64,000 bases of DNA from a bacterium (GCA_037131755.1 JBAXQJ010000004.1:1094-65093), one strand, 5' to 3'; positions 522 to 60,838 are shown, numbered from the stretch's first letter. The notes: generated from the letters alone by a model not told the origin. Program-made: numbers and translations.

Positions 522-524
522 AAG

Positions 525-7238: not shown

Positions 7239-8591
7239 TCAATAAGCTTTGAATAGACGGCGAATTAATTTTTTAAAATACCGTTTTAAAGAATTATCTC
7301 TATTTAGATATTTTGAAATAAAATCATTGGCGCTTTTTATTTCCACGCTTTTTAGCCAACTAATTATTTCTTTATTAATTTTGAGTGTTTCTATAGCGTC
7401 TTGATTATTCAACTCCTTGCCTCTATGTATTACTTCATTTCGTATTTTATCGTAATTTGTGCACCATCCATTCCATAGAATCGCACTTTCTTTTGATAAT
7501 TTTTTTTCAGATACTTCGAATACAAGATCTTTTATTCTGTCTTTTGTATTCCATTTTCTATTCAATATTGCTTGAACATCTTCGGGGCTCAACCCCTTTT
7601 TTATATAGGCAGAAAAAAGAAAATTTTCTAAAAATATTTCGAATGCTTGAAAAATTTTAACGACTGCTAAAGTATACGCCTTTTTACTAATAGACGACGC
7701 CCCGTCTAGCAATAATAACTCATACAACAATGGCATCTCGTCATTTTTTAGCATCAACTCAATCGTCTTGAGCATGTTTAACGGTCTATTCATTATCGCA
7801 TCACCTATGCCATACCCCAATGAACTTATATATAGATGATTGTTGTGATCAACAAAATATACGTTATTTATGTTCAAAGAACCTAATCTCTCAACATAAT
7901 CTTCTTGCGTAACATATCTATACACATCCAAAAGCTTATTAATAACCTCGAGTGAAATTTCTGAGATTGTATTAATCACAGAACTAATATTCTTATTTAT
8001 TTCTTCAATCTTAAAGTCAGTATCTATTTGAATAATGACTTTTGTGTATCTGAACGTCCCATTAGCATCTCTTTCTTTTTCAATGTTTTTACCAGTCCAA
8101 TGTTGTTGCCAACCAAGACTTTCATTTATGGGAAATTGGGGACCAGTCAATACCGTATCTTTGAAATAAGTAGTTTTATTTTCAGCTAAATAATCAGCAT
8201 AATCTGAGTCAACTGTTGAAGTAGTCCAGATTTTTTGAAGTCGGACGTTAGCGACATGTTCTTTCCCCTTGTAGTTAATATCAAAATCGTAGTTATTTGG
8301 CACATGTAGACAATATGGCAGAGTCGCTTCAATAATGGTATTACAATCAAATTCTTCTTTCAAAAATGATGGATCAGTCAATTGATAAACTGGCGATGTA
8401 GTTGTGATTATAAACGCCTTTTCTAGGTTTACTTTATTTAAATCATTAGTTAGCAATTGTTTCTGCTGATCTGACGATAATTTTTCAAATTCTTTTTTGT
8501 TAACCAAAACATAAAAATTAACCACCTCCTGTTTATTTTTAAGGTGGGACTTGGCTTGTATTTCTAATAATTGCCAATCTTTTTCAGTCAT
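7239..8591 (-). CDS. hypothetical protein with C-terminal HEPN-like motif (candidate Abi/defence effector)
   Basis: 450-aa ORF with no recognisable enzymatic domain apart from RNEVIHRG (Rx4H) near the C-terminus in a helical region. Sits in the island between the recombinase and tRNA-Ser. Confidence 0.5.
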   Translation of the reverse strand: MTEKDWQLLEIQAKSHLKNKQEVVNFYVLVNKKEFEKLSSDQQKQLLTNDLNKVNLEKAFIITTTSPVYQLTDPSFLKEEFDCNTIIEATLPYCLHVPNNYDFDINYKGKEHVANVRLQKIWTTSTVDSDYADYLAENKTTYFKDTVLTGPQFPINESLGWQQHWTGKNIEKERDANGTFRYTKVIIQIDTDFKIEEINKNISSVINTISEISLEVINKLLDVYRYVTQEDYVERLGSLNINNVYFVDHNNHLYISSLGYGIGDAIMNRPLNMLKTIELMLKNDEMPLLYELLLLDGASSISKKAYTLAVVKIFQAFEIFLENFLFSAYIKKGLSPEDVQAILNRKWNTKDRIKDLVFEVSEKKLSKESAILWNGWCTNYDKIRNEVIHRGKELNNQDAIETLKINKEIISWLKSVEIKSANDFISKYLNRDNSLKRYFKKLIRRLFKAY

Positions 8592-8655
8592 ATGTATATT
8601 ATACCAAAAATGCCCCTAATAGGGGCATTCGGGTCTATCCGATACTAAATTGTAT

Positions 8656-8747
8656 TGGCGGAGACGGCGAGATTCGAACTCGCGGAGCCCTATAAGAGGC
8701 TCACCTCTTTAGCAAAGAGGCACATTAGACCACTCTGACACGTCTCC
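8656..8747 (-). tRNA. tRNA-Ser (anticodon GCU), CCA encoded
   Basis: Manual fold of GGAGACGTGTCAGAGTGGTCTAATGTGCCTCTTTGCTAAAGAGGTGAGCCTCTTATAGGGCTCCGCGAGTTCGAATCTCGCCGTCTCCGCCA: 7-bp acceptor, anticodon loop TTGCTAA, long variable arm, TTCGAAT T-loop. Confidence 0.8.
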
Positions 8748-8794
8748 AGAAACTGTTTATTCAATTGTTATATCTTCAAAAGAATCAACGTCTG

Positions 8795-8932
8795 GGTCCT
8801 CTTTAGCAAAGAGGCACATTAGGTCACAAGTTTTTGTCTGCTGACAAAACTCGCGACCCCGACTCGCGCCGTCGCGCTCCGTCTTTGATTTGCTCCACGT
8901 ATTCGCAAAGCAACACCCTGACACGTCTCCAA
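8795..8932 (-). pseudogene. duplicated 5' half of tRNA-Ser interrupted by about 96-bp insertion in the D-loop
   Basis: cctctttagcaaagaggcacattag (8795-8820) and ctgacacgtctcca (8919-8932) are identical to the intact tRNA segments 8705-8749; the 6 nt between them are replaced by about 96 nt. Confidence 0.5.
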
Positions 8933-14288: not shown

Positions 14289-14361
14289 GCGCGTGTAGCT
14301 CAGTTGGTAGAGCGGTCGTCTTATACACGACTGGTCCCAGGTTCGAATCCTGGCACGCGCA
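14289..14361 (+). tRNA. tRNA-Ile (anticodon UAU)
   Basis: Manual cloverleaf of GCGCGTGTAGCTCAGTTGGTAGAGCGGTCGTCTTATACACGACTGGTCCCAGGTTCGAATCCTGGCACGCGCA: perfect 7-bp acceptor, 5-bp anticodon stem GTCGT/ACGAC, loop CTTATAC (U33, anticodon TAT, A37), discriminator A, no encoded CCA. Confidence 0.75.
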
Positions 14362-14476
14362 CAAACTAAAGCCGGGTTTTCATCAGATGAAAACCCGGCT
14401 GAGTATTTTATATGATTGGTCGCCAAGGTCTCACCTTTCCCGTCGCCGACTCCTCCCCAAGGAGAGACCTTGTCGC

Positions 14477-28639: not shown

Positions 28640-29611
28640 TCATCTGTTTATTATTTTACCCATAAGCTTATATCCATTTCCATGACTTAACATCCCTAAA
28701 TATGATGCCGCTGTTTCTTTTTTCTGACTTTCCTCTAATCTCTTAAACATTTTGTTTTTAGTACTTGTCCTTAATACCCTATGATTCGGAAAATGCACCC
28801 AGCCCAAAAAATCCATACCAGATGCCAGGGTTTTTATAAAAATCTTTTGGGGATGCATACGCAATTTTAATTTTTGCTCCAGAAATTTGCTGATTATAGG
28901 CACCAGTTTTTCCAATTCACTTTTATCCTGCGAGAAAAAAACAAAATCATCGGCATACCTTATGTAATATCCTGCTTTCAACTTATGCTTTACAAATTGG
29001 TCAAATTCGTTCAGATACACATTCACCAAGAGCTGAGAGGTTAAATTACCGAGCGGCAAGCCCTTATAAATCATACCGCTATGGAAACTTTTAATGATAG
29101 TTCGCAATAAAACAAGAACATTCCGGTCTTTTATATTTTTCTTCAGAATTTCAAACAGTATTTTCTGATCAATGGACGCAAAACACTTCCTGATATCCCC
29201 TTTCAAAATCCAAACGGTTTTAGTGTGATTAAAAGACGCCCTTTTGCCAAAATTCCTGAACCTATCTAGGGCTTTGTGTGTTCCTTTTCCTAACCGGCAA
29301 GAATACGAATCAAAAATAAATTTTCGGTCAAAAAACGGATACAAAATCCGGTAAACCGCCCGGTGCAACACCCTGTCCCGCACGCTTGCCTTGTGTATGT
29401 CTCTCGGCTTCGGATCATTTACCTTGAAATTCTCGTAATTGTCATGAACATAAGTTTTGTTTTTCAAATCATCATGCAGGTCAATCAGATTGTCCATCAA
29501 TCTCAGTTTGAATTCCGGCACATCTTTCTTATCCTTTTTACCCCTTGAAAATTCCTGCCAGGCAAGGAGTAAGTTTTCCAAAGATATGATATGGTCATAG
29601 GCATGAGTCAA
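28640..29611 (-). CDS. diversity-generating retroelement reverse transcriptase
   Basis: 323 aa, RT domains only; YADD box (YIRYADDFVFF); DGR-type motif 4 LPLGNLTSQ ([I/L]GxxxSQ) in place of the group II QGxxxSP; TTG start at 29611. Confidence 0.8.
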   Translation of the reverse strand: MTHAYDHIISLENLLLAWQEFSRGKKDKKDVPEFKLRLMDNLIDLHDDLKNKTYVHDNYENFKVNDPKPRDIHKASVRDRVLHRAVYRILYPFFDRKFIFDSYSCRLGKGTHKALDRFRNFGKRASFNHTKTVWILKGDIRKCFASIDQKILFEILKKNIKDRNVLVLLRTIIKSFHSGMIYKGLPLGNLTSQLLVNVYLNEFDQFVKHKLKAGYYIRYADDFVFFSQDKSELEKLVPIISKFLEQKLKLRMHPQKIFIKTLASGMDFLGWVHFPNHRVLRTSTKNKMFKRLEESQKKETAASYLGMLSHGNGYKLMGKIINR

Positions 29612-29633
29612 AAATTTTCTAACAATAATGTCA

Positions 29634-29647
29634 CCCCCCCCCCCCCC
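29634..29647. repeat. homopolymeric C14 (G14 on minus strand) tract
   Basis: 14 consecutive C, 22 nt upstream of the RT start codon and between an ATG (29628) and the Avd-like reading frame. Confidence 0.9.
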
Positions 29648-29781
29648 GCAACACCCTGCCCGTCATTAACAGCCTGAAAGACGCTTATTTTCTCTGGATT
29701 TCCTATTTTGTCCATCTGCCTAATATACACAAATATTCGCTTGGTGAAAATGTTAGCAAATTATTTATTGAGACTATTGAA

Positions 29782-30006
29782 ATGACGGCTTATGCCGAGT
29801 TTTTGACCAGAACGGAAAAATTACCTTATATAAAAGTAGCAGTACGAAAATTAGATACACTAAAAGTTATGATTCAAATAGTCTGGGAAATAAAGGCTTT
29901 GGACGAGAAAAAATATATTGCTTTGTCAGAAAAACTGAACGAGACCGGCAAGATGCTTGGTGGCTGGCATAATAAATTAGCCAAAGAAAACTCCCCGACT
30001 AAATAA
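29782..30006 (+). CDS. avd: Avd-like accessory protein (four-helix-bundle family), N-terminally truncated in this frame; frame extends upstream to 29629 without a start codon
   Basis: C-terminus EKKYIALSEKLNETGKMLGGW resembles the Avd/TIGR02436 family. In-frame upstream segment ENAYFLWISYFVHLPNIHKYSLGENVSKLFIETIE also resembles the family N-terminus but lacks an ATG. The ATG at 29628 is in the -1 frame, across the C14 tract. Confidence 0.5.
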   Translation: MTAYAEFLTRTEKLPYIKVAVRKLDTLKVMIQIVWEIKALDEKKYIALSEKLNETGKMLGGWHNKLAKENSPTK

Positions 30007-30028
30007 TCGGGGAGAAATAAAGAGAGTA

Positions 30029-30150
30029 GCGGGACCGAGAAGGCAAACCCATTGTCACTGTTCCACCTGTTGTCAGGGTTACCGTTGTAGGCATTGAGCC
30101 TGTAGTCGTTGTACCGGTTCGTACCGAGCACGTTCGGGTTGCCGTCAGAA
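30029..30150 (-). repeat. DGR template repeat (TR)
   Basis: 122 bp, 109/122 identical to 30648-30769; all 13 mismatches are A (minus strand) in this copy. Confidence 0.85.
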
Positions 30151-30631
30151 ATCGTAATGAAACCATCTGTAGCGTTACCCTGGAATACTCGTCGGGACGC
30201 ATAAGTCTGTGTGATCTAAAATCACCCAGTTTCATTACCAAGTATCTTTATTTTTTATAAAGTGTCTGCATAAATCCTCTGTCTCAAACCGTGGCCCAAA
30301 ACATTCTCAACTTATGGATACTGGATTCGGCGGCAACAAACCTTGGCCTGTTACTTATACTCGCCTACTACCGATTTTATTCTAGCACAAAACTGTATTT
30401 TATCTGAAAAACGAAACCACCCTTTTAAAGGTGGTATTCTCGGAGTCTTTCGGCCATTTGTATTACAAGTGTAGCAAGTATAGAGAGATAGTCAATAATA
30501 AAATTTGAGCATTTTAAAACCCCATACTTTCGTATGAGGTTCCGATTCTACGCTGTATTCGGAAAGCGTTGTGACTTTGTCACATTTTTTCGAAGCCAAG
30601 GACAAAGACTCCGAGTGCCAGCGCCTAAATC

Positions 30632-31300
30632 CTAGGCCTGAGCACCAACTTGCGGGACCGAGAAGGCAAACCCACCGCCACCGCTCCACCTGCGGTCAGG
30701 GTTACCGTGGCAGGCAAAGAGCCTGTAGTCGTTGTACCGGTTCGTACCGAGCACGACCGGGTTGCCGTCAGAATCAGGAATAGGTTCGTGCATGGTGATA
30801 ATCCAGTCCAAACCCATTTCCTTGATTTCCTCATCCGAGAACATGTCCCGGATCAAGCAGGCTACTTCGGCATGCGGATCAGTCATCTTCCGTTTCTTGG
30901 CGTTACCACGAATATTCTTCGTGATTCGGTCATTGTCGGAGAACAACTTTCCAGGGATAACACCAATCTGGTGAACCGTCCCTGCCTTGGTCGGCTTAAA
31001 GTTCTTGTGTCGGAGCACGCTTTGGGCGTAACTGCCAACAGGTAAACCTTTGCCATTCAAGTGAACGATCCACTCTTCGCCGGTTTTCCCGTTCGAGACG
31101 ACCGTGAAATAAATCACGCCGTCCGCGTCTCGGGTCCACTTCATACCATCATTGAACCGCCCCTCGATTGCCCGCTGGAGAAAAGCATCAAGTTTTTCCG
31201 GATCAAATCCGTATTCCTTCTGAAGGAAAACCTGACGACCGATTTCCGCCAACTTACCGCCCAGTCTCGCCTGCAGATCGCCATTAAGTTTTGTACTCAT
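30632..31300 (-). CDS. DGR target (variable) protein, probable C-type-lectin-like fold with C-terminal VR
   Basis: 222 aa; the VR encodes the C-terminal NPD.R...GFAFSV segment, which resembles CLec-type VRs; no signal peptide. Confidence 0.7.
   Translation of the reverse strand: MSTKLNGDLQARLGGKLAEIGRQVFLQKEYGFDPEKLDAFLQRAIEGRFNDGMKWTRDADGVIYFTVVSNGKTGEEWIVHLNGKGLPVGSYAQSVLRHKNFKPTKAGTVHQIGVIPGKLFSDNDRITKNIRGNAKKRKMTDPHAEVACLIRDMFSDEEIKEMGLDWIITMHEPIPDSDGNPVVLGTNRYNDYRLFACHGNPDRRWSGGGGFAFSVPQVGAQA
30648..30769 (-). repeat. DGR variable repeat (VR) at 3' end of target gene
   Basis: Counterpart of the TR. The 13 differences all fall at TR adenines, mostly within AAC codons: TR peptide LGTNRYNDYRLNAYNGNPDNRWNSDNGFAFSVP versus VR LGTNRYNDYRLFACHGNPDRRWSGGGGFAFSVP. 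Confidence 0.85.
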
Positions 31301-31550
31301 GACAATCTCCTTTCTGTTTTACCCGCCATTATGACAGGTTTGGTTATGTTTGCTGGACTCTTCGCCACAGCTTTTAAGTGATTTTCTAAAAACCAACTAA
31401 AAGCTGTGGCGAATTTGCCTATCTCCTCGTCTTTTTAAGGTTCGGTTTATCTGTAACAAGTATAGCACCTATTACAATATTTGTCAATACTTACCAAGTT
31501 CCGTCAAGACCCACAAAGGACCGACCTTTGTATGTCCTTATTTAAGGCCA

Positions 31551-31575
31551 CATACCAAGGTTTAGCCTTGGTATG
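31551..31575. repeat. palindromic repeat element copy (loop in opposite orientation)
   Basis: cataccaaggtttagccttggtatg, 36 nt downstream of map. Confidence 0.65.
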
Positions 31576-31586
31576 ACTTTAGTGGG

Positions 31587-32360
31587 TTATAACATAGTCA
31601 ATATTTCCGCTCCGTCTTTGGTTATCACAATCGTATGCTCAAAATGAGCGCTTCTCTTGCCATCGGCGGTCCGATAGGTGTAGTCGTCATCATCTTGGAT
31701 AATATGCTTACTCCCCTCGTTTAACATCGGTTCAATGGCCAGCACCATGCCGACTTTCAATTTCTCCCCTTTTTCTTCCAGGCAATAGTTTGGCACATAA
31801 GGATCTTCGTGGGGCTTGTAGCCGACACCGTGGCCGCACAATTCCTCCACAATCCCATAGCGGAGCGGTCGGACATATTTTTCAATCGCATAGCTGATAT
31901 CGCGGACATGGTTACCCGCGAGAGCAGCAGCGATTCCCTCGTCCAAAGCGCTTTTTGTGACACTGATTAATTTTTGTGCCGCCTCATCGATTTTTCCCAC
32001 TGGTACAGTAACAGCATGATCAGTAAAAAGGCCTTTGTGATTTAACCCCATGTCGAGTGACACAATATCACCCTCTTTCAAGATAATCGGCTTTTCGTTG
32101 GGAATACCGTGAACAATCACATCGTTGACCGACACGCAAATAGCGGCTGGGTAAGCACGCTTGACCCCCGGCGGTCGATAATTCAGAAAGGCTGCTTTAT
32201 CACCATTTTCTTCGGCTAGTTTGATGGCCAGATCGTTTAAATCATTAGTGGATACTCCGGGTTTTACCGCTTTGGCCACTTGGCTCACGATAAAAGCTAG
32301 GCGTTTCCCGCCCTCGCGCAGTATCTCTATTTCTTCTGGTGTTTTAATCGTAACCGCCAT
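31587..32360 (-). CDS. map: methionine aminopeptidase type I
   Basis: 257 aa; the metal-ligand pattern (D, D, H, E, E) typical of MAP is conserved. Confidence 0.9.
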   Translation of the reverse strand: MAVTIKTPEEIEILREGGKRLAFIVSQVAKAVKPGVSTNDLNDLAIKLAEENGDKAAFLNYRPPGVKRAYPAAICVSVNDVIVHGIPNEKPIILKEGDIVSLDMGLNHKGLFTDHAVTVPVGKIDEAAQKLISVTKSALDEGIAAALAGNHVRDISYAIEKYVRPLRYGIVEELCGHGVGYKPHEDPYVPNYCLEEKGEKLKVGMVLAIEPMLNEGSKHIIQDDDDYTYRTADGKRSAHFEHTIVITKDGAEILTML

Positions 32361-32410: not shown

Positions 32411-32603
32411 AAGAGCGAGCCTTTGCCGCTTGGAAAATTCTCTAAGGCAAAGCGAGTTATTGCTTTTTGCGGGTTAGCGGAGCCAGCTTAGAAAATTAAA
32501 GAATTTTTTAGAAAAATCAAACTGTTTGAGGAATATTCTGATATGACGAGTTTTTGATTTTTCGTTAAGAAAAATGACTTAATTTTCAAGCTGGCGCAGC
32601 GCT
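32411..32603. repeat. MITE/ERIC-like intergenic repeat, copy 1
   Basis: About 135-bp core (gcgggttagcggagccagcttagaaaattaaag ... gatatgacgagtttttgatttttcg ... ttaattttcaagctggcgcagcgc) is more than 85% identical to 44892-45025; internal terminal inverted repeats ccagcttagaaaattaa / ttaattttcaagctgg. Confidence 0.7.
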
Positions 32604-32604
32604 A

Positions 32605-32633
32605 GGCCCGCCCAAATCAGATTTGGGCGGGCC
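32605..32633. other. GC-rich 13-bp perfect stem-loop downstream of adk
   Basis: ggcccgcccaaat-cag-atttgggcgggcc; no adjacent U-run. Confidence 0.4.
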
Positions 32634-32661
32634 GTAAGCAAAAGGTAATGACGAGCGATCC

Positions 32662-33294
32662 TTATAGTCCCAATTTATTTATTATCTCCTGATGGACTTC
32701 TTCAATGGTTTTTTCACCATTGATATCCAAGAAAATATAATTGGTATTGTCTTTGTAATAATTGATCGTTGGCATCACTTCGGCATCAAACCATTTCAGC
32801 CTTTTTTCAATCGCCTCCTGTTTGTCATCCTTGCGGGCCCGGCCTTCCAATCTCTTTTTTGCCCACTCCCGGCTAACATTCATATAAATGACTACCGGTA
32901 AAGACACCTTGTAGAAAGTCAAAGCCGAATCAAGCAATTGCGCTTCGTGCAATTTTCGAGGACAGCCATCAAAAAGAAGATTCTCTTTGCCGGTATAATG
33001 GGTGAACAAATAATTTTCCCATAATGCGACCATCACTGCCTCCGGCATCAAACCGCCAGCTTCCATAATCTCTTTCGATAATTTCTGGGTGTAGGTCTTA
33101 CCCTTCACAAATTCGCGAAGGAAAGCGCCGGTTTCGATATGCAGGGTCTGGCAAGATTTATCTTTTTCACACAGGAATTTTGATAGTAAATCCGCCTGAG
33201 TCCCCTTGCCGCAACCAGATCGGCCAATAAAAATATAAGCGCGTGGAATAGACCACATCGGTTCCTTCTTTTCTCGTTTAAAAAAATTTAACAT
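32662..33294 (-). CDS. adk: adenylate kinase
   Basis: 210 aa; P-loop GRSGCGKGTQ; lid/NMP-binding regions. Confidence 0.85.
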   Translation of the reverse strand: MLNFFKREKKEPMWSIPRAYIFIGRSGCGKGTQADLLSKFLCEKDKSCQTLHIETGAFLREFVKGKTYTQKLSKEIMEAGGLMPEAVMVALWENYLFTHYTGKENLLFDGCPRKLHEAQLLDSALTFYKVSLPVVIYMNVSREWAKKRLEGRARKDDKQEAIEKRLKWFDAEVMPTINYYKDNTNYIFLDINGEKTIEEVHQEIINKLGL

Positions 33295-33402
33295 GGGAAA
33301 ATTATAACATATTTTAAAAAGTTAGTGTTATTGAAAGTAGTGAGATATTGCTTTTTAAAAGCATTACGGAGTGAAATTTATAGCAATAAATTTCATGAGT
33401 AT

Positions 33403-33432
33403 AGAAAAAGTGCCGCGTCGGCGGCACTTTTA
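33403..33432 (-). terminator. rho-independent terminator after rplE (operon ends here)
   Basis: gtgccgc-gtcg-gcggcac with flanking A5/T4 runs, about 30 nt downstream of the rplE stop. Confidence 0.55.
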
Positions 33433-33464
33433 TCGTGGTTTTAAAAAGTAATATCGAACGGTTT

Positions 33465-34022
33465 TTATTTCTTAGCATCGTCAGCTTTGAATGGGAAGCC
33501 GAGATATTCCAGGAAGGCAGCTGCTTCAGCCTTATTCTTTGCTGTTGTATTTACCGTAATAGTCATCCCGAAAACATCTTTCAGTTCTTCATCGGCTGTT
33601 TCTGGGAAAATAGTGTTTTCTTTGATACCAATGGAATAGTTACCCATTTCATCAATACCTTTTCTTAGGATACCACGAAAGTCTTTAGTTCGAGGGAAAG
33701 CCACCAAAACCATTTTATCGACAAAAGCCATCATTCTGTCGCCACGCAAAGTGACAACCAAGCCAACCGGGTCACCTTGTCGAACTTTGAACGAAGCGAT
33801 CGACTTCTTGGCCCCGCGAAGCGCCGGCTTCTGGCCGGTAATTTTGACCACTCGATCAGTAATAGTTTCGATTTTCTTCTTATCCTTGAGGGAACCGATA
33901 CCAACATTCACCACCACCTTCTGGAGCTTTGGCACCTGCATGATATTTTTGTAACCCATCTTACCCTTTAGGGCTTCAAAGGTTTTCTCCTGCTTTTCTT
34001 TGGTTGTAATAATTTTTGACAT
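33465..34022 (-). CDS. rplE: 50S ribosomal protein L5
   Basis: 185 aa; matches the L5 family. Confidence 0.9.
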   Translation of the reverse strand: MSKIITTKEKQEKTFEALKGKMGYKNIMQVPKLQKVVVNVGIGSLKDKKKIETITDRVVKITGQKPALRGAKKSIASFKVRQGDPVGLVVTLRGDRMMAFVDKMVLVAFPRTKDFRGILRKGIDEMGNYSIGIKENTIFPETADEELKDVFGMTITVNTTAKNKAEAAAFLEYLGFPFKADDAKK

Positions 34023-37381: not shown

Positions 37382-37654
37382 GGTATTAAAATTAAAGATT
37401 AAAAATCAAAACGTAAAATATTGAGTCCGCCCAAGCGAACAAATATCCTGAATTCCTCTCATCTGTAGACAGACAAAACGATCCAGAATCCATCTTCGTA
37501 ACTCTTAGCGTTAAAAAAACAGAGCTCTTTCAAGCTCCGAGTATATTAGCAGAGGACGATTCAGAAGTCAAGCAAAATAAAAGCGGTATTTATCTCGGAG
37601 CGAGGTACCTGCCCATAAGGAGCTCGACCACATCTCGTCCTACGTTGCCGATAA

Positions 37655-37684
37655 CAAAAACAACCCCCGAAGGGGTTGTTTTTG
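37655..37684. terminator. strong bidirectional intrinsic terminator hairpin inside the rplB-rpsS spacer
   Basis: caaaaacaacccc-cgaa-ggggttgtttttg, 13-bp stem with U-runs readable on both strands. Confidence 0.55.
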
Positions 37685-37791
37685 CTTAAAAATAAAAGCG
37701 GTATGAACCCTTATATTGCCTTCCTCGGCTCGGAAATGGAAAAGATTACTTTTTCATTTCGCTCGCTCTACGTCGGCAATAAGTTTTGAAA

Positions 37792-38653: not shown

Positions 38654-39019
38654 TTAGATAAATGCTATCTTATCCCCTTTCTTCAAGAAGACAACGGCTT
38701 TTTTGACGCCCGACATAGAACCTTTTTTGCCTTTGGCAAAAACTTTCTTGGAAGGTAATTTGGTTATATTCACCTTCACTGCATCAACTTTGTATAATTC
38801 TTTTATCGCCTTGGCGACAGTTTTCTTCGTCGCAACGGCGGTAATTTCGAAAGTGTAAACACCTTCGCTCTCAGCCTTGATCCCTGACTTTTCAGTAATT
38901 CTTGGCTTTTTGATGATCGCACCGGCATCAAAAGATCCGGAATTGATCACGCTAGGGCTATTCGTAGAAGCTTTCGCTTCTTTTGCAGCTCCTTTGTTTT
39001 TTTTCATTTCTGTTTTCAT
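38654..39019 (-). CDS. rplW: 50S ribosomal protein L23 (N-terminally extended)
   Basis: C-terminal 90 aa match L23; about 30-aa Lys/Ala-rich N-terminal extension. Confidence 0.8.
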   Translation of the reverse strand: MKTEMKKNKGAAKEAKASTNSPSVINSGSFDAGAIIKKPRITEKSGIKAESEGVYTFEITAVATKKTVAKAIKELYKVDAVKVNITKLPSKKVFAKGKKGSMSGVKKAVVFLKKGDKIAFI

Positions 39020-39146
39020 TAATGTATTTCTGGTAATTAGGGCGAGTTATTGTCTTTTTAGAGACTAGCGAGCGCGACGGCGCAAGCTCGAGGAAAAATT
39101 TAGCAAAATTTTATCCGTGCTCTAAAAAGATAATAACGAGCGACTT

Positions 39147-39884
39147 TTATTTAATCTTGTTAGCCAAGAATTTGACTGAATCAGCGGCGTTTTCGATAAT
39201 CAGATATTTATGATTCAAAACATCCAAAGTGTTGATATTTCTTGATTCATCAACAAAGATGTTACCGAAATTTCGGAAACTCTTTTCGACGGCCTTATCC
39301 TTTTTGGCGATGGCGATGTAAGCCGAGTTATTCTTCTTTGACAAAATATTCTCACAACCTGGAATCTTGGCAAAGTTTGAAAGAGTAGCAAGGGCGTCTT
39401 TCGTCTTTGGAGCAGCAAAGCTGATCTTGTCGACAAATATAACCTCGCCATCCTTGTATTTTCGAGACAAGATCGTGAAGAGAGCTTTCGCATTCATCTT
39501 CTTGTTGACCTTTCTTGAATAATCTTTGTCATTTCGAGGACCGTGAGCGACACCTCCACCCACCCAAATCGGTGATCGGGTTGAGCCGTGTCGAGCGCGT
39601 CCAAGGCCTTTCTGCTGCCATGGCTTCTTGCCTCCTCCGGAGACATCGCCGCGATTCTTGGTGTGGGCAATGTTGGCTCGCTTGTTGGACATAAGAGACA
39701 CCACTACCTGATGAACCAAGTCGGCATTCCAAGGCAACGCGAAAATCGATTCTGGCAATTTGATGGTATCCACGGCCTTGCCTTTCTGGTCATAAATTTT
39801 TGAATCCAAAGAGATTTCCGTCTTTTTAGCGGCGGCTTTCTCTTTTCTTGGAGTCTTGATCTTTTTTAGTATTTTTTCTGTCAT
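39147..39884 (-). CDS. rplD: 50S ribosomal protein L4
   Basis: 245 aa; matches L4. Confidence 0.85.
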   Translation of the reverse strand: MTEKILKKIKTPRKEKAAAKKTEISLDSKIYDQKGKAVDTIKLPESIFALPWNADLVHQVVVSLMSNKRANIAHTKNRGDVSGGGKKPWQQKGLGRARHGSTRSPIWVGGGVAHGPRNDKDYSRKVNKKMNAKALFTILSRKYKDGEVIFVDKISFAAPKTKDALATLSNFAKIPGCENILSKKNNSAYIAIAKKDKAVEKSFRNFGNIFVDESRNINTLDVLNHKYLIIENAADSVKFLANKIK

Positions 39885-42237: not shown

Positions 42238-42563
42238 ATTTTTATGGGCCGACTTTACTTGCTTAAGCGGAGCGCGCGAGAACGTTGGCTCTGCCTATTC
42301 AACTAAAGCGACTAAAAATTATTTTGCCTTCCATTTTACAATGGAGAGCGATTAATAAATCGACTTATAATGGTGTAAATTAATTTACACAGCGAAATCC
42401 GCCCGCTCGAACATATACCAGTTCATCAGCGAGAAAATTACGGTTTGGTAATATTAACAAATTAAGAAAAAATGTCAAATACAGCGCTTCGGCCCTGGTC
42501 AGGCAGTCTCCTCCCCCGCCCACGATTATCATAGAAAGGTTCGAACTGGGTAATTTAATAAAC

Positions 42564-42600
42564 AAAATAGCGGGTTTGGCTACGCCAAACCCGCTATTTT
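42564..42600 (-). terminator. rho-independent terminator downstream of fusA
   Basis: aaaatagcgggtttggc-tac-gccaaacccgctatttt, 17-bp stem with U-run on the minus strand. Confidence 0.55.
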
Positions 42601-42615
42601 AAAATTATAAAATCT

Positions 42616-44757
42616 CTATTTTCTCGCTTCCGCTATCTCCTTGGCGACGTTAGGCGGTACAATATCATAGTGATCAAACTCCATGTTTACGGAGGCACGG
42701 CCCTCAGTCATCGAACGCAAGGTCGTAATATAACCGAACATTTCTGACAACGGAACCTTGGCATCAATCACTTTATTCATACCGCGTTCACCCATTTCTT
42801 CAATCACCCCTCGCTTGGAGTTTAGATGGCCAGCGACATCACCCATGAATTTCTCTGGGACAACGACTTCAACCTTCATGATCGGTTCCAAAATAACCGG
42901 TCGAGCACGCTTGGCAGCGTCTTGGAAAGCCTGTGACGCAGCGATCTTGTAGGCGATTTCTGACGAATCCACGTCGTGGTACGAACCGAACAAAAGTTCG
43001 ACGGAAATATCCACCATTTTGTAACCAGCCGACACACCGCGCTCCATTCCTTCGACAACACCCTTTTCGACAGCTGGGATGAATTCCTGAGGAATAACAC
43101 CACCCTTGATCGAATCGATGAATTCAAAACCGTCAACCCGGTGAACGTTCTTGGGGATTTTCTCGCCTTCAACCAATTTCTCCAAAGGCTTGATTTTCAA
43201 TTTGACGTGACCGTACTGACCCTTACCTCCAGACTGCTTGATGTATTTGTATTCAGCTTCCGCTTCGCCGGTAATGGTTTCCTTGTAGGCCACTTGTGGC
43301 TTGCCAACGTTGGCTTCCACACCGAATTCTCGCTTCATACGATCAACGAGAATTTCCAAGTGCAATTCACCCATACCTTTGATCACCGTCTCGCCAGTAT
43401 CACCATCGGAGACAATTTTGAAAGTTGGATCTTCATCAGAAAGTTTCTTCAAAGCCATACCCATCTTTTCCTGATCAGCCTTAGTCTTTGGCTCGATTTT
43501 CAAGGAAATAACAGGTTCTGGGAAGACAATCTGATCAAGAATGATTGGATTTTCTTCATCGCAGAAAGTATGAGAGGTCTTGGCATCTTTCAAACCGACA
43601 GCCGCCGCGATTTCTCCGGCATAGACGATCTCCACTTCTTCTCGCTTGTCTGCCTGCATTCGCACGATACGGCCAAGCCTTTCTTTCTTGCCGGTCGTTG
43701 AGTTGTAAATATAGATTCCTGGGGTAACAGAACCTGAGTAGACTCGGAAATAGGTCAGCTGTCCGACGAATGGGTCAGTCTGCAACTTGAAAGCCAGGGC
43801 TGCAAACGGCTCTTCGTTTGAAGCATGTCGGAACACTTCCTCTCCCGTATTTGGATTGATACCTTTGACCGGAGGAATATCGGTTGGCGCTGGCAAATAA
43901 TCCACCACGGCATCCAAAACCAATTGAACACCCTTATTCTTCAAGGCGGAACCAGTCATAACCGGGACCAAAGTATTGGCAATGGTCGCCTTTCGCAAAA
44001 TCGTTTTCAAAGTCTCGATTGGGATTTCTTTACCATCCAGATAGTCAGCCATCGCTGCTTCATCTTGCTCCACGATCTTTTCAACGGTTTCCGCTCGGTA
44101 TTTCTTGGCCTTTTCCAAATATTCGGCTGGGATTTCCTTTTCAACCAAAACATTACCCATATCACCCTCAAAATAGACAGCCTTCATTTTCAGCAAGTCG
44201 ATGACCGCTTCAAAAGCGTCCTCCTCGCCGATCGGGATCTGCATTCGGATGGCATTCTTGGTCAAACGGCTCAAAATAGACTGGTATGATCGCTCAAAAG
44301 AACCGCCGGTTCGATCGAGTTTGTTGATGAAACAGATTCGAGGCACTTTTCCGTCATCCGCATAGCGCCAGTTGGTTTCTGACTGCGGTTCCACGCCGGC
44401 CACGCCGTCAAACACCACCACAGCACCATCGAGCACACGAAGAGAACGCTTCACCTCGGCGGTAAAGTCGATGTGTCCAGGAGTATCGATGATGTTGAAC
44501 ATCACCTTTCGGCTGATATCCTTGCCCATATAGGATGGGTTCCAAAAACACGTGATGGCCGCCGAGCAGATAGTGATTCCTCTCTCTCGTTCCTGTTCCA
44601 TCCAGTCGGTGGTCGTCTCACCATCGTGCACTTCACCGATTTTGTGCGACTGTCCGGTATAATACAAAATACGTTCAGACGTCGTTGTCTTACCAGCATC
44701 GATGTGGGCGATGATTCCGAAATTTCGAACTTTTTCTAGAGGATATAGGCGTGCCAT
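42616..44757 (-). CDS. fusA: elongation factor G
   Basis: 713 aa; [14 protein letters not shown], domains II-V. Confidence 0.95.
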
Positions 44758-44837
44758 ATAATAAAATTGTTAATATAAATAAAACCAGGTTTAATTGGTG
44801 ACTGTAGGATACATTAAAAATAAGTAAAAAGCAAACA

Positions 44838-44866
44838 AATAACCGTCCGAGGACGGTTATTTGTTA
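44838..44866. other. stem-loop between rpsG and fusA (possible attenuator/terminator)
   Basis: aaataaccgtc-cgag-gacggttattt. Confidence 0.4.
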
Positions 44867-44870: not shown

Positions 44871-45053
44871 GAGAGCGAGGTTTCTTGTTTTACGTGTTAG
44901 CGGAGCTGGTTTAGGAAATCAACGAGCTTTTTAGAAAAATCAAACTGTTTGAGGAATATTCTGATATGACGAGTTTTTGATTTTTCGTGAAGAAAAGCGA
45001 CTTGATTTTCAAACTGGCGCAGCGCGGAAAGCAAAACAAGAAACCGAGCGTCC
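44871..45053. repeat. MITE/ERIC-like intergenic repeat, copy 2 (flanked by 13-bp inverted repeats ggtttcttgtttt / aaaacaagaaacc)
   Basis: Core 44892-45025 aligns base-for-base with 32469-32602, including gatatgacgagtttttgatttttcg and ctggcgcagcgc. Confidence 0.7.
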
Positions 45054-45054
45054 T

Positions 45055-45525
45055 TTACCAGGCAAAGTGAGCAAAAGCCTTGTTGGCTTCGGCCATTTTG
45101 TGGGTATTTTCTCGCTTGCGGACAGCTTCACCTTCGTTTTTAGAAGCGGCAATGATTTCATCGGCCAATTTCTTGGCGATTGGCGCACCCTTCTTGCCTC
45201 GAGCAGCTTCGATAATCCATTTCATGGAGACGGCTTGTCGTCGTTCTGGTCGAACCTCGACTGGCACCTGATAGTTGGCACCACCGACTCGCTTGGATCG
45301 CACCTCCACGTTTGGAGCGGTATTAGACAAAGCTAATTCAAAGGTTTCCAAAGGGTTGGAAGTCTTGGTCTTTTCTTTGATCTCGTCAAAAGCACCGTAA
45401 ACAATCTTGGTGGCAATGCTTTTCTCGCCGGCCAACATCATATAATTGATGAACTTGGCGACTTTAGGTGAATTGTACTTAAGATCTGGCTGTATGTCTT
45501 TCTTTGTTTTTAGTTTTCTTCGCAT
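45055..45525 (-). CDS. rpsG: 30S ribosomal protein S7
   Basis: 156 aa; matches S7. Confidence 0.9.
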
Positions 45526-53228: not shown

Positions 53229-53346
53229 CTTTTATCCTTCTCTATTTTTCTGTCCGCCAGCACACTATGTGCCAGCAAGGAACTTTTATACCCTCAATTA
53301 TAGCATAATATATAGCCTTTTGTCAAGCAATAATTCCGCCAAGCTT

Positions 53347-53373
53347 CTATACCAAGGCTAAACCTTGGTATAG
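53347..53373. repeat. palindromic repeat element copy
   Basis: ctataccaaggctaaaccttggtatag, identical to 12348-12374. Confidence 0.7.
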
Positions 53374-53414
53374 TGGCTTAAAATATGAGTTTCTGGAAGA
53401 TTGTCCTTGGGATT

Positions 53415-59269: not shown

Positions 59270-59453
59270 TTATCTTATTATACAAAAAAACCCAGAACTA
59301 AGCGAGGGCAAGAGTAGCTTCTTAGCTGGTAGCTTGTAGGAAGATAATTTTAATACATTATGAGTCTGTTCATTTTGCGTGTTAACGGAGCCGGCTTAGA
59401 AAATTAAAGAGGTTTTTAATAAAACAAAGCATTAGATACACCGTTCTCAATTA

Positions 59454-59623
59454 AGCGAGTATTTGGGTTTTTGCGAGTTAGCGTAGTGATAGTTAAAAAT
59501 CAAGATAATTTTTAGAAAAATTCATCTGTCTGACGAGTCTGCGAGGAGTTATGAATTTTTTGTAAAGAAAATTATCTATGATTTTTCTATCACGAAGCGC
59601 TTTAGCAAAAACCCAAATACGAG
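59454..59623. repeat. MITE/ERIC-like repeat, diverged copy 3, bounded by 17-bp terminal inverted repeats
   Basis: cgagtatttgggttttt ... aaaaacccaaatacgag flank a core related to copies 1 and 2 (ttgcgagttagcg..., tttttagaaaaat, ctgacgag). A further partial copy (gcgtgttaacggagccggcttagaaaattaaag) lies at 59377-59409. Confidence 0.55.
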
Positions 59624-60838
59624 CTATATCTTATCCATCACCGAATAAATCGGCGAGATCATTGAGATAGCAAAGAAACCAACAGCCGCACCGATTAGTA
59701 CCATGAGAACCGGTTCGATGATTGTCGACATATCTTTAGTCCGCTGATCGACATCGGCCTCATAGAAAATCGCTACCTCTGACAGCATGCTTGCCATTTT
59801 ACCGGTTTCCTCACCAACGCTCATCATTTCGCCGACAAACGGCGGATAGAGATCCGGACTCTTCATAAAAATCGTCGAGATATTCTCGCCTTTTTCCACA
59901 ACCGATTTCGCTTCAATCAAGACTTTCTTGTAATAATAATTACCCATCACTTCGGCCGTGATCTCAATTGCCTGGGCAAAAGGCACTCCAGCCTCGAGCA
60001 AGGAAGACAAGGTTCGGGCGACGCGCGCCGTATTGGTTTCGCGCACCAGTTCTCCAATCAAAGGAGCCTTGATTGCGATAAGATTCATCGTCCGACTGCC
60101 TTGAGGAGTCTTTGCCCAGACATAAATTACAGAAATGGTCGTCAACAAAATAATGATCGCATACAGCCAATGGGCCGACAAAAAGTCGCTCAGCATGATG
60201 ATAAATTGCGTACTGGCCGGCAAATCCGTACCGGCATCCCGGAAAGTACCAACGAGACCGGGTACAACGTAAATAAACATGAGGACTCCGACGACAAGCA
60301 TCACGGAAATTATGACGGCCGGATAGATCATCGCCCCTTTCACTTTCTTTTGGATTTTATAGGTCTTGTCCATTTGTTCGGCGATATTATTCAAAGACTT
60401 GGACAAGCTGCCCCCCTCCTCTCCCGCTCGGACCATCGAGACAAACAGTCCGGAAAATACTGAGGGTTGAGTCTTCATCGCTTCGCTGAAAGTTTTTCCC
60501 TTCTTTATTTCCAGGTTCAGGGCGGCCATCACCTTGGAAAATCTCGCGTTTTTTATCTGGCGCTCCAACACCGACAAAGCCCGAGTGAGGGACAGTCCGG
60601 CATCGAGCATCAAGCCGAGGTTTTTGGCAAAGGCGATTTTCTGGGCGACAGAAACCCTGCCAATGATGGAATTGACAATAGACATGAGATCAAAACTGTT
60701 CTTCTTGACCTCCTCGGCCGAAATAAGCATCGCTTCTTCGGACTTGATGTCGTTGTACAAGTCCAAACGGTTTTGGGCTTCTTTGATTCCCTCAACCCTT
60801 TCCCCGTTATTTTTTATCGCCTTATACTTGAATTTCAT
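59624..60838 (-). CDS. pilC: type IV pilus assembly platform protein PilC (GspF family)
   Basis: 404 aa; two GspF repeats; 3 TM segments. Confidence 0.8.
   Translation of the reverse strand: MKFKYKAIKNNGERVEGIKEAQNRLDLYNDIKSEEAMLISAEEVKKNSFDLMSIVNSIIGRVSVAQKIAFAKNLGLMLDAGLSLTRALSVLERQIKNARFSKVMAALNLEIKKGKTFSEAMKTQPSVFSGLFVSMVRAGEEGGSLSKSLNNIAEQMDKTYKIQKKVKGAMIYPAVIISVMLVVGVLMFIYVVPGLVGTFRDAGTDLPASTQFIIMLSDFLSAHWLYAIIILLTTISVIYVWAKTPQGSRTMNLIAIKAPLIGELVRETNTARVARTLSSLLEAGVPFAQAIEITAEVMGNYYYKKVLIEAKSVVEKGENISTIFMKSPDLYPPFVGEMMSVGEETGKMASMLSEVAIFYEADVDQRTKDMSTIIEPVLMVLIGAAVGFFAISMISPIYSVMDKI

What the first reader, a model, noticed from the sequence alone, without database searches (positions are those of the whole stretch)
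32411..32603. MITE/ERIC-like intergenic repeat family inside core operons (copies 1 and 2)
About 135 bp between adk and map (32469-32602) is nearly identical to 44892-45025 between rpsG and fusA. The shared blocks include gttagcggagc, tttttagaaaaatcaaactgtttgaggaatattctgatatgacgagtttttgatttttcg and ctggcgcagcgc. Each copy carries terminal inverted repeats (ccagcttagaaaattaa / ttaattttcaagctgg in copy 1; ggtttcttgtttt / aaaacaagaaacc flanking copy 2). Both sit in transcribed spacers of highly expressed operons, like enterobacterial ERIC/IRU elements or MITEs, and may fold into large RNA hairpins that affect mRNA processing.
Basis: seen in the sequence. Interest (0 to 1): 0.6.

Follow-up and report, generated by a model that had tools for sequence, protein, structure and literature searches.

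The report
Strand-specific rod-shaped repeat after stop codons
A small, previously undescribed family of about 170-210-base hairpin-forming repeats sits just after the stop codons of core genes in a few tiny "candidate phyla radiation" bacteria; its fold is preserved by compensating mutations, on the strand opposite to the neighbouring gene, so it resembles but does not belong to the known intergenic repeat families.

Summary
Positions 32469-32602 and 44892-45025 match at 119 of 134 bases without gaps, including a 61-base exact block. The full units are longer: c1 is 32450-32658 and c2 is 44873-45051. The window also holds c4 (59453-59626), a 5' half copy c3, a degenerate c0, and two shorter relatives that share only the hairpin foot (39041-39143 and 33338-33461).

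Eleven distinct full copies from the window, one Patescibacteria MAG and metagenomes fold into one long rod. In the core helices, 20 of 41 pairs carry compensatory double changes (0 of 500 shuffles reach this).

The foot and the tip carry invariant tandem G.A/A.G steps (GCGAG...CGAGC). G.U pairs outnumber A.C about 45 to 6, so the fold is kept on the strand antisense to the gene that ends 0-4 nt from the element's 3' end (12 of 14 loci).

Copies are mosaic, and one 5' half was swapped between two 99.7%-identical strains.

There is no Rfam match, no target-site duplication, no ERIC match, and no transposase linked to the element. The RAYT-like gene found nearby is flanked by a different palindrome.

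Best reading: a new palindromic repeat family spread and homogenised by recombination, acting as a strand-specific RNA hairpin. The function is inferred, not shown.

The parts
32450..32658 (+). Full type A copy c1, between adk (32662-33294, minus) and map (31587-32360, minus). The foot is AAGCGAG...CGAGCGA. The 3' end lies 4 nt from the adk stop codon.
   Evidence: (nhmmer E 1.7e-47)
32605..32633 (+). G+C-rich hairpin inserted inside c1, between the CGCAGCGC block and the 3' arm of P1. It is absent from c2 and c4.
32412..32456 (+). c0: a degenerate, internally deleted mini-copy directly upstream of c1 (AGCGAG-CCTTTGCC-loop-GGCAAAG-CGAG). Its last bases overlap the foot of c1.
   Evidence: read; inference
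44873..45051 (+). Full type A copy c2, between rpsG (45055-45525, minus) and fusA (42616-44757, minus). The 3' end lies 4 nt from the rpsG stop codon.
   Evidence: (E 9.9e-47)
44834..44865 (-). Terminator-like hairpin with a U tract on the gene-sense strand, just downstream of c2 as the rpsG transcript reads it. It is context rather than part of the repeat.
59360..59451 (+). c3: a 5' half copy that runs up to the tip of the rod and is fused directly to the foot of c4.
   Evidence: E 6e-09
59453..59626 (+). Full type A copy c4, between a pilC/gspF-like gene (59624-60838, minus) and a pilin-like gene (58793-59269, minus). Its last bases overlap the TAG stop codon.
   Evidence: (E 1.1e-36)
39041..39143 (+). 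Type B relative: same foot (GGCGAG...CGAGCGA) and a similar P1, but a different interior. It lies between rplD (39147-39884, minus) and rplW (38654-39019, minus), 4 nt from the rplD stop codon. A second type B copy is at L015 10061-10185.
33338..33461 (+). Type D relative: the foot is GUGAG...CGAAC (the C-G pair is replaced by U-A while the G.A steps are kept). Its P1 resembles that of c1, and a terminator-like G+C hairpin is embedded at the tip. It lies between rplE (33465-34022, minus) and adk, 4 nt from the rplE stop codon.

Best explanation
This is a lineage-restricted family of non-coding, rod-like palindromic repeats, found in a few Paceibacteria/Minisyncoccia-type (CPR) genomes. It is not coding and it is not a one-off duplication.

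Every copy folds into one long hairpin with these parts:
- a foot in which G-C pairs enclose an invariant tandem G.A/A.G step (5'-GCGAG ... CGAGC-3');
- a copy-specific outer stem, P1;
- a conserved block (UUUURCGNGUUAGCGRAG facing CGMAGCGC-NNN-AGYAAAA);
- several co-varying stems;
- a tip with two more tandem G.A steps around a co-varying S-S' pair, which tolerates inserted hairpins.

Shown:
- the family exists;
- the fold shows covariation;
- the fold is preserved on one strand only, the strand antisense to the gene whose stop codon lies 0-4 nt from the element's 3' end;
- copies are mosaics, and halves are exchanged between copies on a very recent time scale.

Inferred:
- Copies spread and are homogenised by recombination or gene conversion between gene-end spacers. 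No dedicated transposase is identified.
- The hairpin acts at the RNA level as polar punctuation. Transcripts entering from the downstream side (antisense or divergent transcription, or a co-oriented upstream gene as in L007 and L013) meet the full-strength rod at the end of the neighbouring gene. The operon's own transcript carries the complement, which is weakened by A.C and U.C mismatches and can be read through.
For: Family and distribution:
- There are 4 type A copies in the window.
- One real hit came from 185,579 species genomes, a Patescibacteria MAG. Eleven metagenome loci were found, all real copies.
- The element is present after khpA in eight further contigs.
- Several contigs end inside copies, as expected for a repeat within a genome.

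Structure:
- All copies give the same long hairpin, with z-scores of -4.6 to -9.9.
- 94.9% of cells are paired against 81.5% in shuffles, and 20 of 41 pairs have double changes against 9.9; 0 of 500 shuffles reach either value. Slid controls give about 50% paired.
- P1 pairs in every copy although its sequence differs.

Strand:
- G.U 28 against A.C 2 in the core helices, and G.T 17 against A.C 4 in P1.
- The plus strand folds 7-22 kcal/mol better as RNA in all 11 copies. With DNA parameters the difference is only 2 kcal/mol for c4.
- Most other intergenic gaps of the window fold better on the minus strand; four of the six that fold clearly better on the plus strand hold these elements.
- The plus strand is C-rich overall, so the background composition bias points the other way.

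Placement:
- The 3' end lies 0-4 nt from, or overlaps, the stop codon of a convergent gene in 12 of 14 loci. In six loci the arrangement is exactly CGAGCG/CGAACG + 4 nt + TTA.

Recombination:
- c2 and the L015 copy share 94% of the core but have unrelated P1 stems. L009 and L010 share P1 but differ in the inner stems.
- Window against strain L016: 7 of 40 differences fall in 100 nt of the 5' half of c1, and 9 fall in the remaining ~12.6 kb outside the DGR repeat.

Old copies:
- The khpA-linked copies of two diverged lineages keep the fold. Synonymous changes in the khpA stop region are matched in the opposite arm.
Against: - No transcript data exist. Promoter-like sites on the plus strand upstream of the copies occur at chance level, and no conserved promoter is seen in the upstream flanks.
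- The U tract after the foot is good in some copies (type B, type D, L007, L015) and poor in others (c1, c2, L006), and it is confounded by lysine-rich gene ends.
- A simple terminator does not need 170 nt, nor the conserved CGNGUUAGCGRAG block and G.A steps. These suggest a specific binding partner that I could not identify.
- The type B copy lies in a 127-nt rplD-rplW spacer with no room for a promoter on its 5' side.
- Two loci (L009/L014 and L013) have the other orientation relative to neighbouring genes.
- G.T is also the least bad mismatch in DNA, so a single-stranded DNA form is not excluded.
- Arm-to-arm template switching in quasi-palindromes could mimic part of the covariation without selection, although it would not explain the excess of G.U over A.C.
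Confidence: 0.4

Rival explanations
1. The element acts as single-stranded DNA. The plus-strand hairpin, with its CGAG steps, would be the substrate of a structure-specific nuclease, recombinase or transposase (HUH/Y1-type or tyrosine recombinase). That enzyme would move the element or exchange halves of it, as with REP/REPIN-RAYT, IS200/IS605-derived palindromic elements or integron attC sites.
For: - The fold is strand-specific.
- Junctions and exchange tracts coincide with the CGAG motifs. c3 is fused to c4 where the tip motif would be, and the strain-specific tract runs from the 5' foot to the tip.
- Serial AAGCGAG starts occur upstream of full copies.
- A Y1_Tnp gene lies on a contig that also carries type A and type B copies.
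- Tandem sheared G.A pairs also form in CGAG-rich DNA (PMC10085684, abstract seen).
- Integron attC sites also fold on the strand antisense to the cassette gene and sit at its stop codon (my own knowledge).
Against: - The Y1 transposase is flanked on both sides by a different short palindrome, ACCAAGG-YTWAR-CCTTGGT. It sits at a syntenic position in a genome fragment that has no such elements in 20 kb.
- There are no attC core sites (RYYYAAC/GTTRRRY) at the foot.
- The folded strand is neither the lagging-strand template nor the non-template strand, i.e. it is the strand least exposed as single-stranded DNA (plus gene orientation).
- With DNA energy parameters the two strands are almost equal for c4.
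- The L009/L014 copy has the opposite orientation relative to ribosomal protein genes.
Confidence: 0.2
2. The element acts on the operon mRNA, the sense strand. It would be a 3'-UTR or intercistronic hairpin that stabilises the upstream message, is cut by RNase III, or pauses or terminates transcription, like REP, ERIC or Correia elements.
For: - The sense strand is certainly transcribed and still forms a long hairpin (z -5 to -10).
- The element directly follows stop codons.
- c2 lies between the rpsG stop codon and a sense-strand terminator.
- Type D and the L011 copy embed terminator-like hairpins.
- Promoter-like sites for map and the pilin gene follow the elements.
Against: - On the sense strand the invariant G.A steps become U.C/C.U mismatches, and about 45 wobble pairs become A.C.
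- The sense strand folds 7-22 kcal/mol worse in all 11 copies, opposite to the usual trend of intergenic gaps here.
- No U tract follows the sense hairpin (CUCGCUU then mixed sequence).
Confidence: 0.15
3. The elements are independent multi-copy structured non-coding RNA genes, transcribed on the plus strand from their own promoters. The G.A steps and the conserved internal loop would bind a protein.
For: - The covariation, conserved wobble pairs, tandem G.A motifs and tolerance of inserted hairpins are all typical of RNA families.
- The strand signal is of the RNA type.
- The khpA locus shows long retention.
Against: - No conserved promoter is present, and in several loci there is no room for one.
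- No defined terminator is present.
- Copies are mosaic and turn over rapidly.
- Truncated copies exist (c0, c3, the L001 partial copy).
- The family is patchy and low in copy number, and there is no Rfam match.
Confidence: 0.15
4. It is a recent segmental duplication of one spacer, or a chance similarity, and not a family.
For: c1 and c2 share a 61-nt exact block.
Against: - Further copies in at least 10 unrelated gene contexts and several organisms share only the element, not the flanks.
- Divergent copies (64-67% identity) keep the fold.
Confidence: 0.01

Closest known systems
ERIC/IRU and other co-transcribed palindromic intergenic repeats (REP/BIME, Neisseria Correia elements, pneumococcal BOX/RUP)
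   Same: Small, non-coding, multi-copy imperfect palindromes that lie in transcribed spacers of operons and can form long hairpins. The copies are mosaic or modular, as in BIMEs.
   Different: - There is no sequence relation (the ERIC2 core is absent).
- It occurs in a different phylum.
- Copy number is low.
- The fold shows covariation and is preserved on the strand antisense to the operon.
- The foot and tip carry invariant tandem G.A steps.
- The 3' end is fixed at the stop codon.
REPIN/REP with RAYT (Y1 HUH transposase)
   Same: Hairpin-forming repeats of extragenic space that act in a strand-specific way. A RAYT-like Y1_Tnp gene exists in these genomes.
   Different: That gene is flanked by its own short palindrome, ACCAAGG-YTWAR-CCTTGGT, which also occurs three times in the window. 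The long element shares nothing with that palindrome, is 5 times longer, and is not found next to the gene.
MITEs
   Same: Short, non-coding and dispersed, with ends that are inverted repeats in the broad sense. Near-identical copies occur at different loci (L009 = L013 = L014; c1 about 96% identical to L007).
   Different: - No target-site duplication.
- Only the 6-nt foot is shared at the termini, and it carries a fixed GA/GA mismatch.
- The rest of the terminal repeat is copy-specific.
- No parent insertion sequence is known.
Rickettsia palindromic elements
   Same: Palindromic repeats in a reduced genome that can overlap the ends of genes. In L006, L011 and L012 the stop codon and last codons lie inside the 3' arm (my own knowledge of RPEs).
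   Different: There is no in-frame insertion inside proteins. The KhpA C-terminus EDLKI is the native one.
Integron attC sites
   Same: The structure rather than the sequence is conserved, the tip is variable, folding is on the strand antisense to the adjacent gene, and the site sits at the gene's stop codon (my own knowledge).
   Different: There are no RYYYAAC/GTTRRRY boxes. The neighbours are core genes (ribosomal proteins, adk, recA, efp), not cassettes. No integron integrase or cassette array is seen.
TIGR-Tas stem-loop arrays of CPR bacteria (PMC12045711)
   Same: Hairpin units with variable palindromic stems and short conserved motifs, found in CPR genomes.
   Different: TIGR units form tandem arrays next to a Tas (Nop-domain) gene and carry two unpaired 8-12-nt spacers between box C and D motifs. 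Here the copies are dispersed singly, the variable segments are paired with each other, and no array is present.
Intrinsic (bidirectional) terminators
   Same: A hairpin at the end of a gene with a G+C-rich foot. Some copies are followed by a U-rich tract, and terminator-like hairpins are embedded in or adjacent to some copies.
   Different: The element is ten times longer, has conserved internal motifs, lacks a consistent U tract, and is a homologous family rather than a set of independent hairpins.

Membership tests
MITE | Target-site duplication flanking each copy | tested here: not met
   At most 0-2 nt of identity at the junctions of 7 copies, which is chance level.
MITE | Terminal inverted repeats shared by all copies (the transposase binding sites) | tested here: inconclusive
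   Only the foot, AGCGAG / CGAGCG(T), is shared, and it always carries a GA/GA mismatch. The following 8-9 nt of the inverted repeat differ between copies.
MITE | A parent insertion sequence with the same ends and a transposase | tested here: not met
   None was found in about 0.4 Mb of held sequence. The only transposase found (Y1_Tnp) has other flanks. The search is limited to the loci fetched.
ERIC / IRU | Homology to the enterobacterial ERIC consensus | tested here: not met
   The ERIC2 primer core, recalled from memory, has no match with up to 3 mismatches. The host is a CPR bacterium.
REP/REPIN-RAYT | The repeats flank the RAYT gene, and the hairpin is short with a conserved 5' foot | tested here: not met
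   The RAYT-like gene in L015 and L028 is flanked by ACCAAGG...CCTTGGT palindromes, not by this element.
Any Rfam family | Score at or above the gathering threshold | tested here: not met
   In the whole window only tmRNA and two tRNAs pass. In E-value mode the elements give only hits far below threshold to plant miRNA hairpins and ArcZ.
TIGR stem-loop array | A tandem array of units with two unpaired spacers between box C and D motifs | tested here: not met
   The copies are single or in pairs, the arms are fully paired, and no array is present.
TIGR stem-loop array | An adjacent Tas (Nop-domain) gene | not tested
   The window proteins were not scanned exhaustively. None of the neighbouring genes is of this kind: they are adk, map, rpsG, fusA, rplD, rplW, rplE and pilus genes.
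Integron attC | RYYYAAC / GTTRRRY core sites forming the foot, within a cassette array with an integrase | tested here: not met
   The foot is GCGAG/CGAGC, GTTAGCG lies inside the 5' arm, and the neighbours are core genes.
Intrinsic terminator | A G+C-rich stem followed directly by a U tract | tested here: inconclusive
   The scan calls no terminator at the foot of any copy. The plus-strand tails are U-rich in some copies only.
Structured RNA (generic) | Covariation above controls and a strand-specific G.U signal | tested here: met
   This shows a conserved fold of one strand, not that the RNA is made.

The most novel reading that the evidence does not exclude
The rod is a genuine functional nucleic acid of the strand antisense to the operons. 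It would be an RNA (or a reverse-transcribed or single-stranded DNA copy) with three tandem-G.A 'clamps' and a conserved internal loop that bind a dedicated protein. CPR bacteria with minimal regulatory repertoires would use it as a portable, direction-dependent boundary element or recombination site. That element would punctuate and rearrange core operons. Elements sit at the rplE|adk and rplE...rpsN break points of the spc operon.
Probability: 0.2. Interest if true: 0.75.

Novelty: new variant of a known kind. Interest (0 to 1): 0.5.

Why it matters
CPR/Patescibacteria genomes are small and streamlined and are thought to be poor in repeats and regulators. A repeat family that lives inside the ribosomal-protein operons is therefore worth noting for several reasons:
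- It keeps an elaborate fold through compensatory change.
- It does so on the strand opposite to the operon.
- It exchanges halves between copies faster than the rest of the genome mutates.

This gives a handle on how these genomes punctuate transcription units and how their conserved operons get broken and reshuffled.

In practice the elements break metagenome assemblies inside core marker-gene clusters. They could also be mis-annotated as open reading frames: the spurious 'LIFREEKRLDFQTG...' ORF recurs in several loci.

If a binding protein or a plus-strand RNA is found, it would define a new RNA or DNA motif class for an uncultured phylum.

Tried and rejected
- Rfam, in gathering and E-value modes, gave nothing.
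- A small conserved ORF was considered. Tiny ORFs in the tip are not conserved between copies (reading).
- A hammerhead-like CUGANGA core is not conserved between copies.
- 6S, SRP and Y RNA-like rods were rejected because the element is multi-copy, has no central bubble and has no Rfam hit.
- TIGR-Tas stem arrays have a different architecture.
- For integron attC, there are no core sites.
- RAYT as the mobilising enzyme was rejected after finding that the gene has its own, different flanking palindromes.
- For a phage or plasmid origin, two viral-contig scans were negative.
- Empty sites in relatives:
  - With Adk at 74% identity, adk and map abut with no spacer.
  - With Adk at 72% identity, the spacer holds an unrelated hairpin and the rplE|adk spacer holds only a plain terminator.
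  - These relatives are too distant to define insertion boundaries.
- Promoter scans upstream of the copies are at chance level.
- Literature searches for CPR repeats or structured RNAs found no description of this element.
- A replication-strand explanation for the orientation is weakened. The folded strand is the one least exposed as single-stranded DNA, and the L009/L014 copy has the opposite orientation relative to ribosomal genes.
- I did not build a covariance model, because nhmmer with the 11-copy profile already recovered all copies and found no others in the held loci.

Full report
**1. The observation**

Positions 32469-32602 and 44892-45025 align without gaps at 119 of 134 positions (88.8%) and share a 61-nt exact block. 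The repeat finder reports the pair over 152 nt at 86%.

- adk 32662-33294 and map 31587-32360 (Pfam names);
- rpsG 45055-45525 and fusA 42616-44757.

The conserved 5' motif TTTTGCGNGTTAGCGGAGC occurs four times in the window, against 0.09 expected. The window therefore holds more copies: a 5' half copy c3 (59360-59451) fused to a full copy c4 (59453-59626), between a pilC-like and a pilin-like gene.

**2. Family**

One scan of 185,579 species genomes found a single real hit, a Patescibacteria MAG with a half copy followed by a full copy. The other three hits were chance matches.

One metagenome scan found 11 loci, all real copies. Some come from the same species as the window (L005, L008; 99.6-99.98% identical). 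Others come from different gene contexts and organisms.

A profile of 11 distinct full copies recovers every copy (E 1e-30 to 1e-47) and the half copies. It later recovered eight more contigs that carry the element after khpA.

Several contigs end inside copies (L009, L013, L014, L015). One identical sequence sits in three contexts (L009, L013, L014). This is what a repeat within one genome does to an assembly.

The host is a Parcubacteria/Paceibacteria-type CPR bacterium, judged from the names attached to the homologues. No copy was found on viral contigs.

**3. Anatomy (plus strand as written)**

- Foot: AAGCGAG ... CGAGCGA. G-C pairs enclose G.A and A.G.
- P1: 12-17 bp. The outer 8-9 bp are copy-specific, and the inner part is a T run facing an A run.
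- A conserved block: RCG-N-GTTAGCG-R-AG facing CG-M-AGCGC-NNN-AGYAAAA.
- Three to four further stems.
- Tip: YTGTYTGA-S-GAG [loop or inserted hairpin] C-GA-S'-GAG. S and S' co-vary: C..G in c4, G..C in L012 (read).

Insertions are tolerated at two places:
- the tip (about 100 nt in L006, a G+C hairpin in L011);
- between the CGCAGCGC block and P1' (the G+C hairpin 32605-32633 in c1).

Each copy folds into this rod, with z-scores of -4.6 to -9.9.

On the alignment of 11 distinct copies, the 41 core pairs are 94.9% paired, against 81.5% in shuffles. Twenty pairs carry changes on both sides, against 9.9 expected. No shuffle in 500 reaches either value, and sliding the partner by 1-3 columns drops pairing to 41-55%. 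MAFFT cannot put P1 in register, so it was counted separately: 212 Watson-Crick, 17 G.T, 4 A.C and 5 other pairs over 15 elements.

The foot varies only in ways that keep it:
- GUGAG/CGAAC in type D (C-G becomes U-A);
- CCGAG/UGAGG in L011 and L012;
- an extra A-U pair in L006.

The G.A/A.G step never changes. From my own knowledge, 5'-GCGAGC-3' is the classic context of tandem sheared G.A pairs in RNA. The same holds for CGAG-rich DNA (PMC10085684, seen).

**4. Which strand folds**

- In the core helices there are 28 G.U cells against 2 A.C cells. Leaving out two columns where the wobble pair is itself conserved, the count is 13 against 2. In P1 the count is 17 against 4.
- As RNA, the plus strand is 7-22 kcal/mol more stable than the minus strand in all 11 copies.
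- This runs against the local trend. Most other intergenic gaps of the window fold better on the minus strand; of the six that fold clearly better on the plus strand, four hold these elements.
- The plus strand is C-rich throughout the window. The usual compositional bias therefore predicts the opposite of what is seen.
- With DNA energy parameters the two strands of c4 are nearly equal, -42.0 against -39.7 kcal/mol. The asymmetry is of the kind that matters for RNA, although G.T is also the mildest DNA mismatch.
- On the gene-sense strand the invariant G.A steps would be U.C/C.U.

**5. Placement**

In 12 of 14 loci where it can be judged, the element's 3' end abuts the stop codon of a gene on the other strand. 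These loci are:
- adk, rpsG and the pilC-like gene in the window;
- efp and recA (L015);
- a 705-aa ORF and a CCA-adding-enzyme gene (L010);
- a 328-aa ORF (L006);
- khpA (L011 = L030-L037, and L012/L001);
- a 75-aa ORF (L007);
- rplD and rplE, for the two shorter relatives.

In six loci the arrangement is exactly CGAGCG (or CGAACG) + 4 nt + TTA: c1, c2, type B, type D, L015 and L007. In L006, L011 and L012 the stop codon and last codons lie inside P1'.

The KhpA C-terminus EDLKI is universal in Parcubacteria. So in L011 and L012 the 3' foot and part of P1' are native coding sequence, and the 5' arm matches it. Two synonymous differences between those lineages (AAA/AAG and TAA/TAG) are met by A-to-G, or by G.T against G-C, in the opposite arm.

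Exceptions exist:
- L014 and L009 are probably one locus split by the assembler. There the element lies between a small divergent ORF downstream of rplE and a promoter-like site plus rpsN, and it is co-oriented with rpsN.
- In L013 it is co-oriented with the upstream genes.
- In L007 it fills the gap between two convergent genes, and both stop codons touch it.

**6. Turnover**

Copies are mosaics. c2 and the L015 copy are about 94% identical in the core but have unrelated, internally complementary P1 stems. L009 and L010 share P1 but differ, with compensation, in the inner stems.

Comparing the window with a second strain over 12,968 nt gives 40 differences:
- 24 in the variable repeat of a diversity-generating retroelement;
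- 7 within 100 nt of the 5' half of c1 (32447-32546);
- 9 everywhere else.

Four of these changes inside c1 give the states seen in the L007 copy. I read this as gene conversion of a half element.

Half copies that keep the 5' half sit directly upstream of full copies in three loci (c0-c1, c3-c4, and the L001 partial-full pair). In c3-c4 the junction falls where the tip's second CGAG step would be. The CGAG steps may therefore be preferred break points. This is an inference.

**7. A wider group**

Scanning for hairpins with the same foot found shorter elements with other interiors:
- type B (39041-39143, and L015 10061-10185);
- type D (33338-33461), which wraps a terminator-like G+C hairpin;
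- type C (L010 9855-10005).

All have the same orientation and the same position at a stop codon.

Relatives of the host lack them:
- With Adk at 74% identity, adk and map abut directly.
- With Adk at 72% identity, the adk-map spacer holds an unrelated hairpin and the rplE-adk spacer a plain terminator.
- After khpA, close relatives carry either a plain terminator (L040) or yet another long hairpin that again folds better on the antisense strand (L038).

**8. What it is not**

- It matches no Rfam family.
- It has no ERIC core.
- It has no target-site duplication.
- A Y1 (IS200/RAYT-like) transposase lies on a contig that carries type A and B copies. However, in two genomes it is flanked by a different short palindrome, ACCAAGG-YTWAR-CCTTGGT. 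That palindrome also occurs at three sites in the window (families D5, I2, I4). It is therefore the cognate REP, not the long element.
- TIGR-Tas stem-loop arrays of CPR bacteria (PMC12045711) are tandem arrays next to a Tas gene with unpaired spacers. They do not match.

**9. Mechanism**

Shown:
- a homologous repeat family;
- a conserved fold of one strand, with non-canonical G.A steps;
- a position at gene ends with a strong orientation bias;
- rapid exchange between copies.

Inferred, with about 0.4 confidence: the repeats spread and are homogenised by recombination between gene-end spacers, and they act as strand-specific RNA hairpins. Transcription entering from the downstream side, or from a co-oriented upstream gene, meets the full rod at the border of the neighbouring gene. 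The operon's own transcript carries a weakened complement.

This reading fits:
- the RNA-type strand signal;
- the orientation rule and its exceptions (L007, L013, L009/L014);
- the promoter-like and terminator-like sites next to several copies.

It does not explain why the rod is so long or why the internal block is conserved. It also lacks any transcript evidence, and the promoter scans are at chance level.

The main rivals are a single-stranded DNA substrate of an unidentified structure-specific enzyme (0.2), a sense-mRNA stabiliser or processing site (0.15) and independent non-coding RNA genes (0.15).

**10. Verdict**

It is a new, lineage-restricted variant of the palindromic intergenic repeat theme, with unusual strand-specific structural conservation. 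Interest is moderate (0.5). It would rise if a plus-strand RNA or a binding protein were found.

Noticed in passing
window 28640-31300: A diversity-generating retroelement. It comprises a reverse transcriptase (28640-29611, minus; RVT_1, E 1.3e-24), a bAvd-like ORF below the Pfam cut-off (29782-30006), a template repeat at 30029-30150, and a variable repeat at 30652-30773 at the 3' end of ORF 30632-31300. Between two strains that are 99.7% identical, 24 of 40 differences fall in the variable repeat, all at codon positions 1 and 2, so the element looks active.
   Followed up: partly
window 12343-12400, 31541-31576, 53341-53382; L015 480-560; L028 9590-9700 and 10380-10420: A second, short palindromic repeat, ACCAAGG-YTWAR-CCTTGGT. 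It flanks a RAYT-like Y1 transposase gene on both sides in L028 and upstream in L015, which is a classical REP-RAYT arrangement in Patescibacteria. The copy after map is conserved in a relative with 72% Adk identity (L026).
   Followed up: partly
window 33295-34022; L018, L009, L014: The spc operon is broken after rplE. Here rplE is followed by adk-map, and the rpsN...secY block is elsewhere. In L018 rpsN...secY-adk-map is contiguous but separated from rplE. Hairpin elements sit at the rplE|adk junction (type D) and upstream of rpsN (L009).
   Followed up: partly
window 37382-37791 and 42238-42615: Unusually long spacers inside the S10/str operons: 410 nt between rpsS and rplB, and 378 nt between fusA and tuf. 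Both fold strongly on the gene-sense strand. The first includes a perfect terminator-like hairpin and CGAG-rich stretches. I did not analyse them further.
   Followed up: no
window 1-8600 and 8656-8827: A low-G+C segment (35% against about 45%) with large restriction-modification-like ORFs and an ORF whose N-terminus looks like a serine recombinase (5907-7226; read by eye, unverified). It ends near tRNA-Ser (8656-8747). A 30-nt piece of that tRNA is repeated at 8798-8827. This may be an integrated island.
   Followed up: no
window 14289-14362: A tRNA-Ile with anticodon TAT (UAU), which is uncommon in bacteria.
   Followed up: no
L024 4907-5098; L038 2816-3039: Relatives carry unrelated long hairpins at the same positions (after adk, after khpA). 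The L038 hairpin also folds better on the strand antisense to the gene (-98.8 against -85.4 kcal/mol). This hints that antisense-folded rods at gene ends are a wider habit in this group.
   Followed up: partly
window 44977-45336; L015 10516-11145; L009 7424-7681: A spurious ORF that starts inside the element (translation LIFREEKRLDFQTGAARKAK...) recurs wherever a copy lies. Gene callers could annotate it as a conserved hypothetical protein.
   Followed up: no
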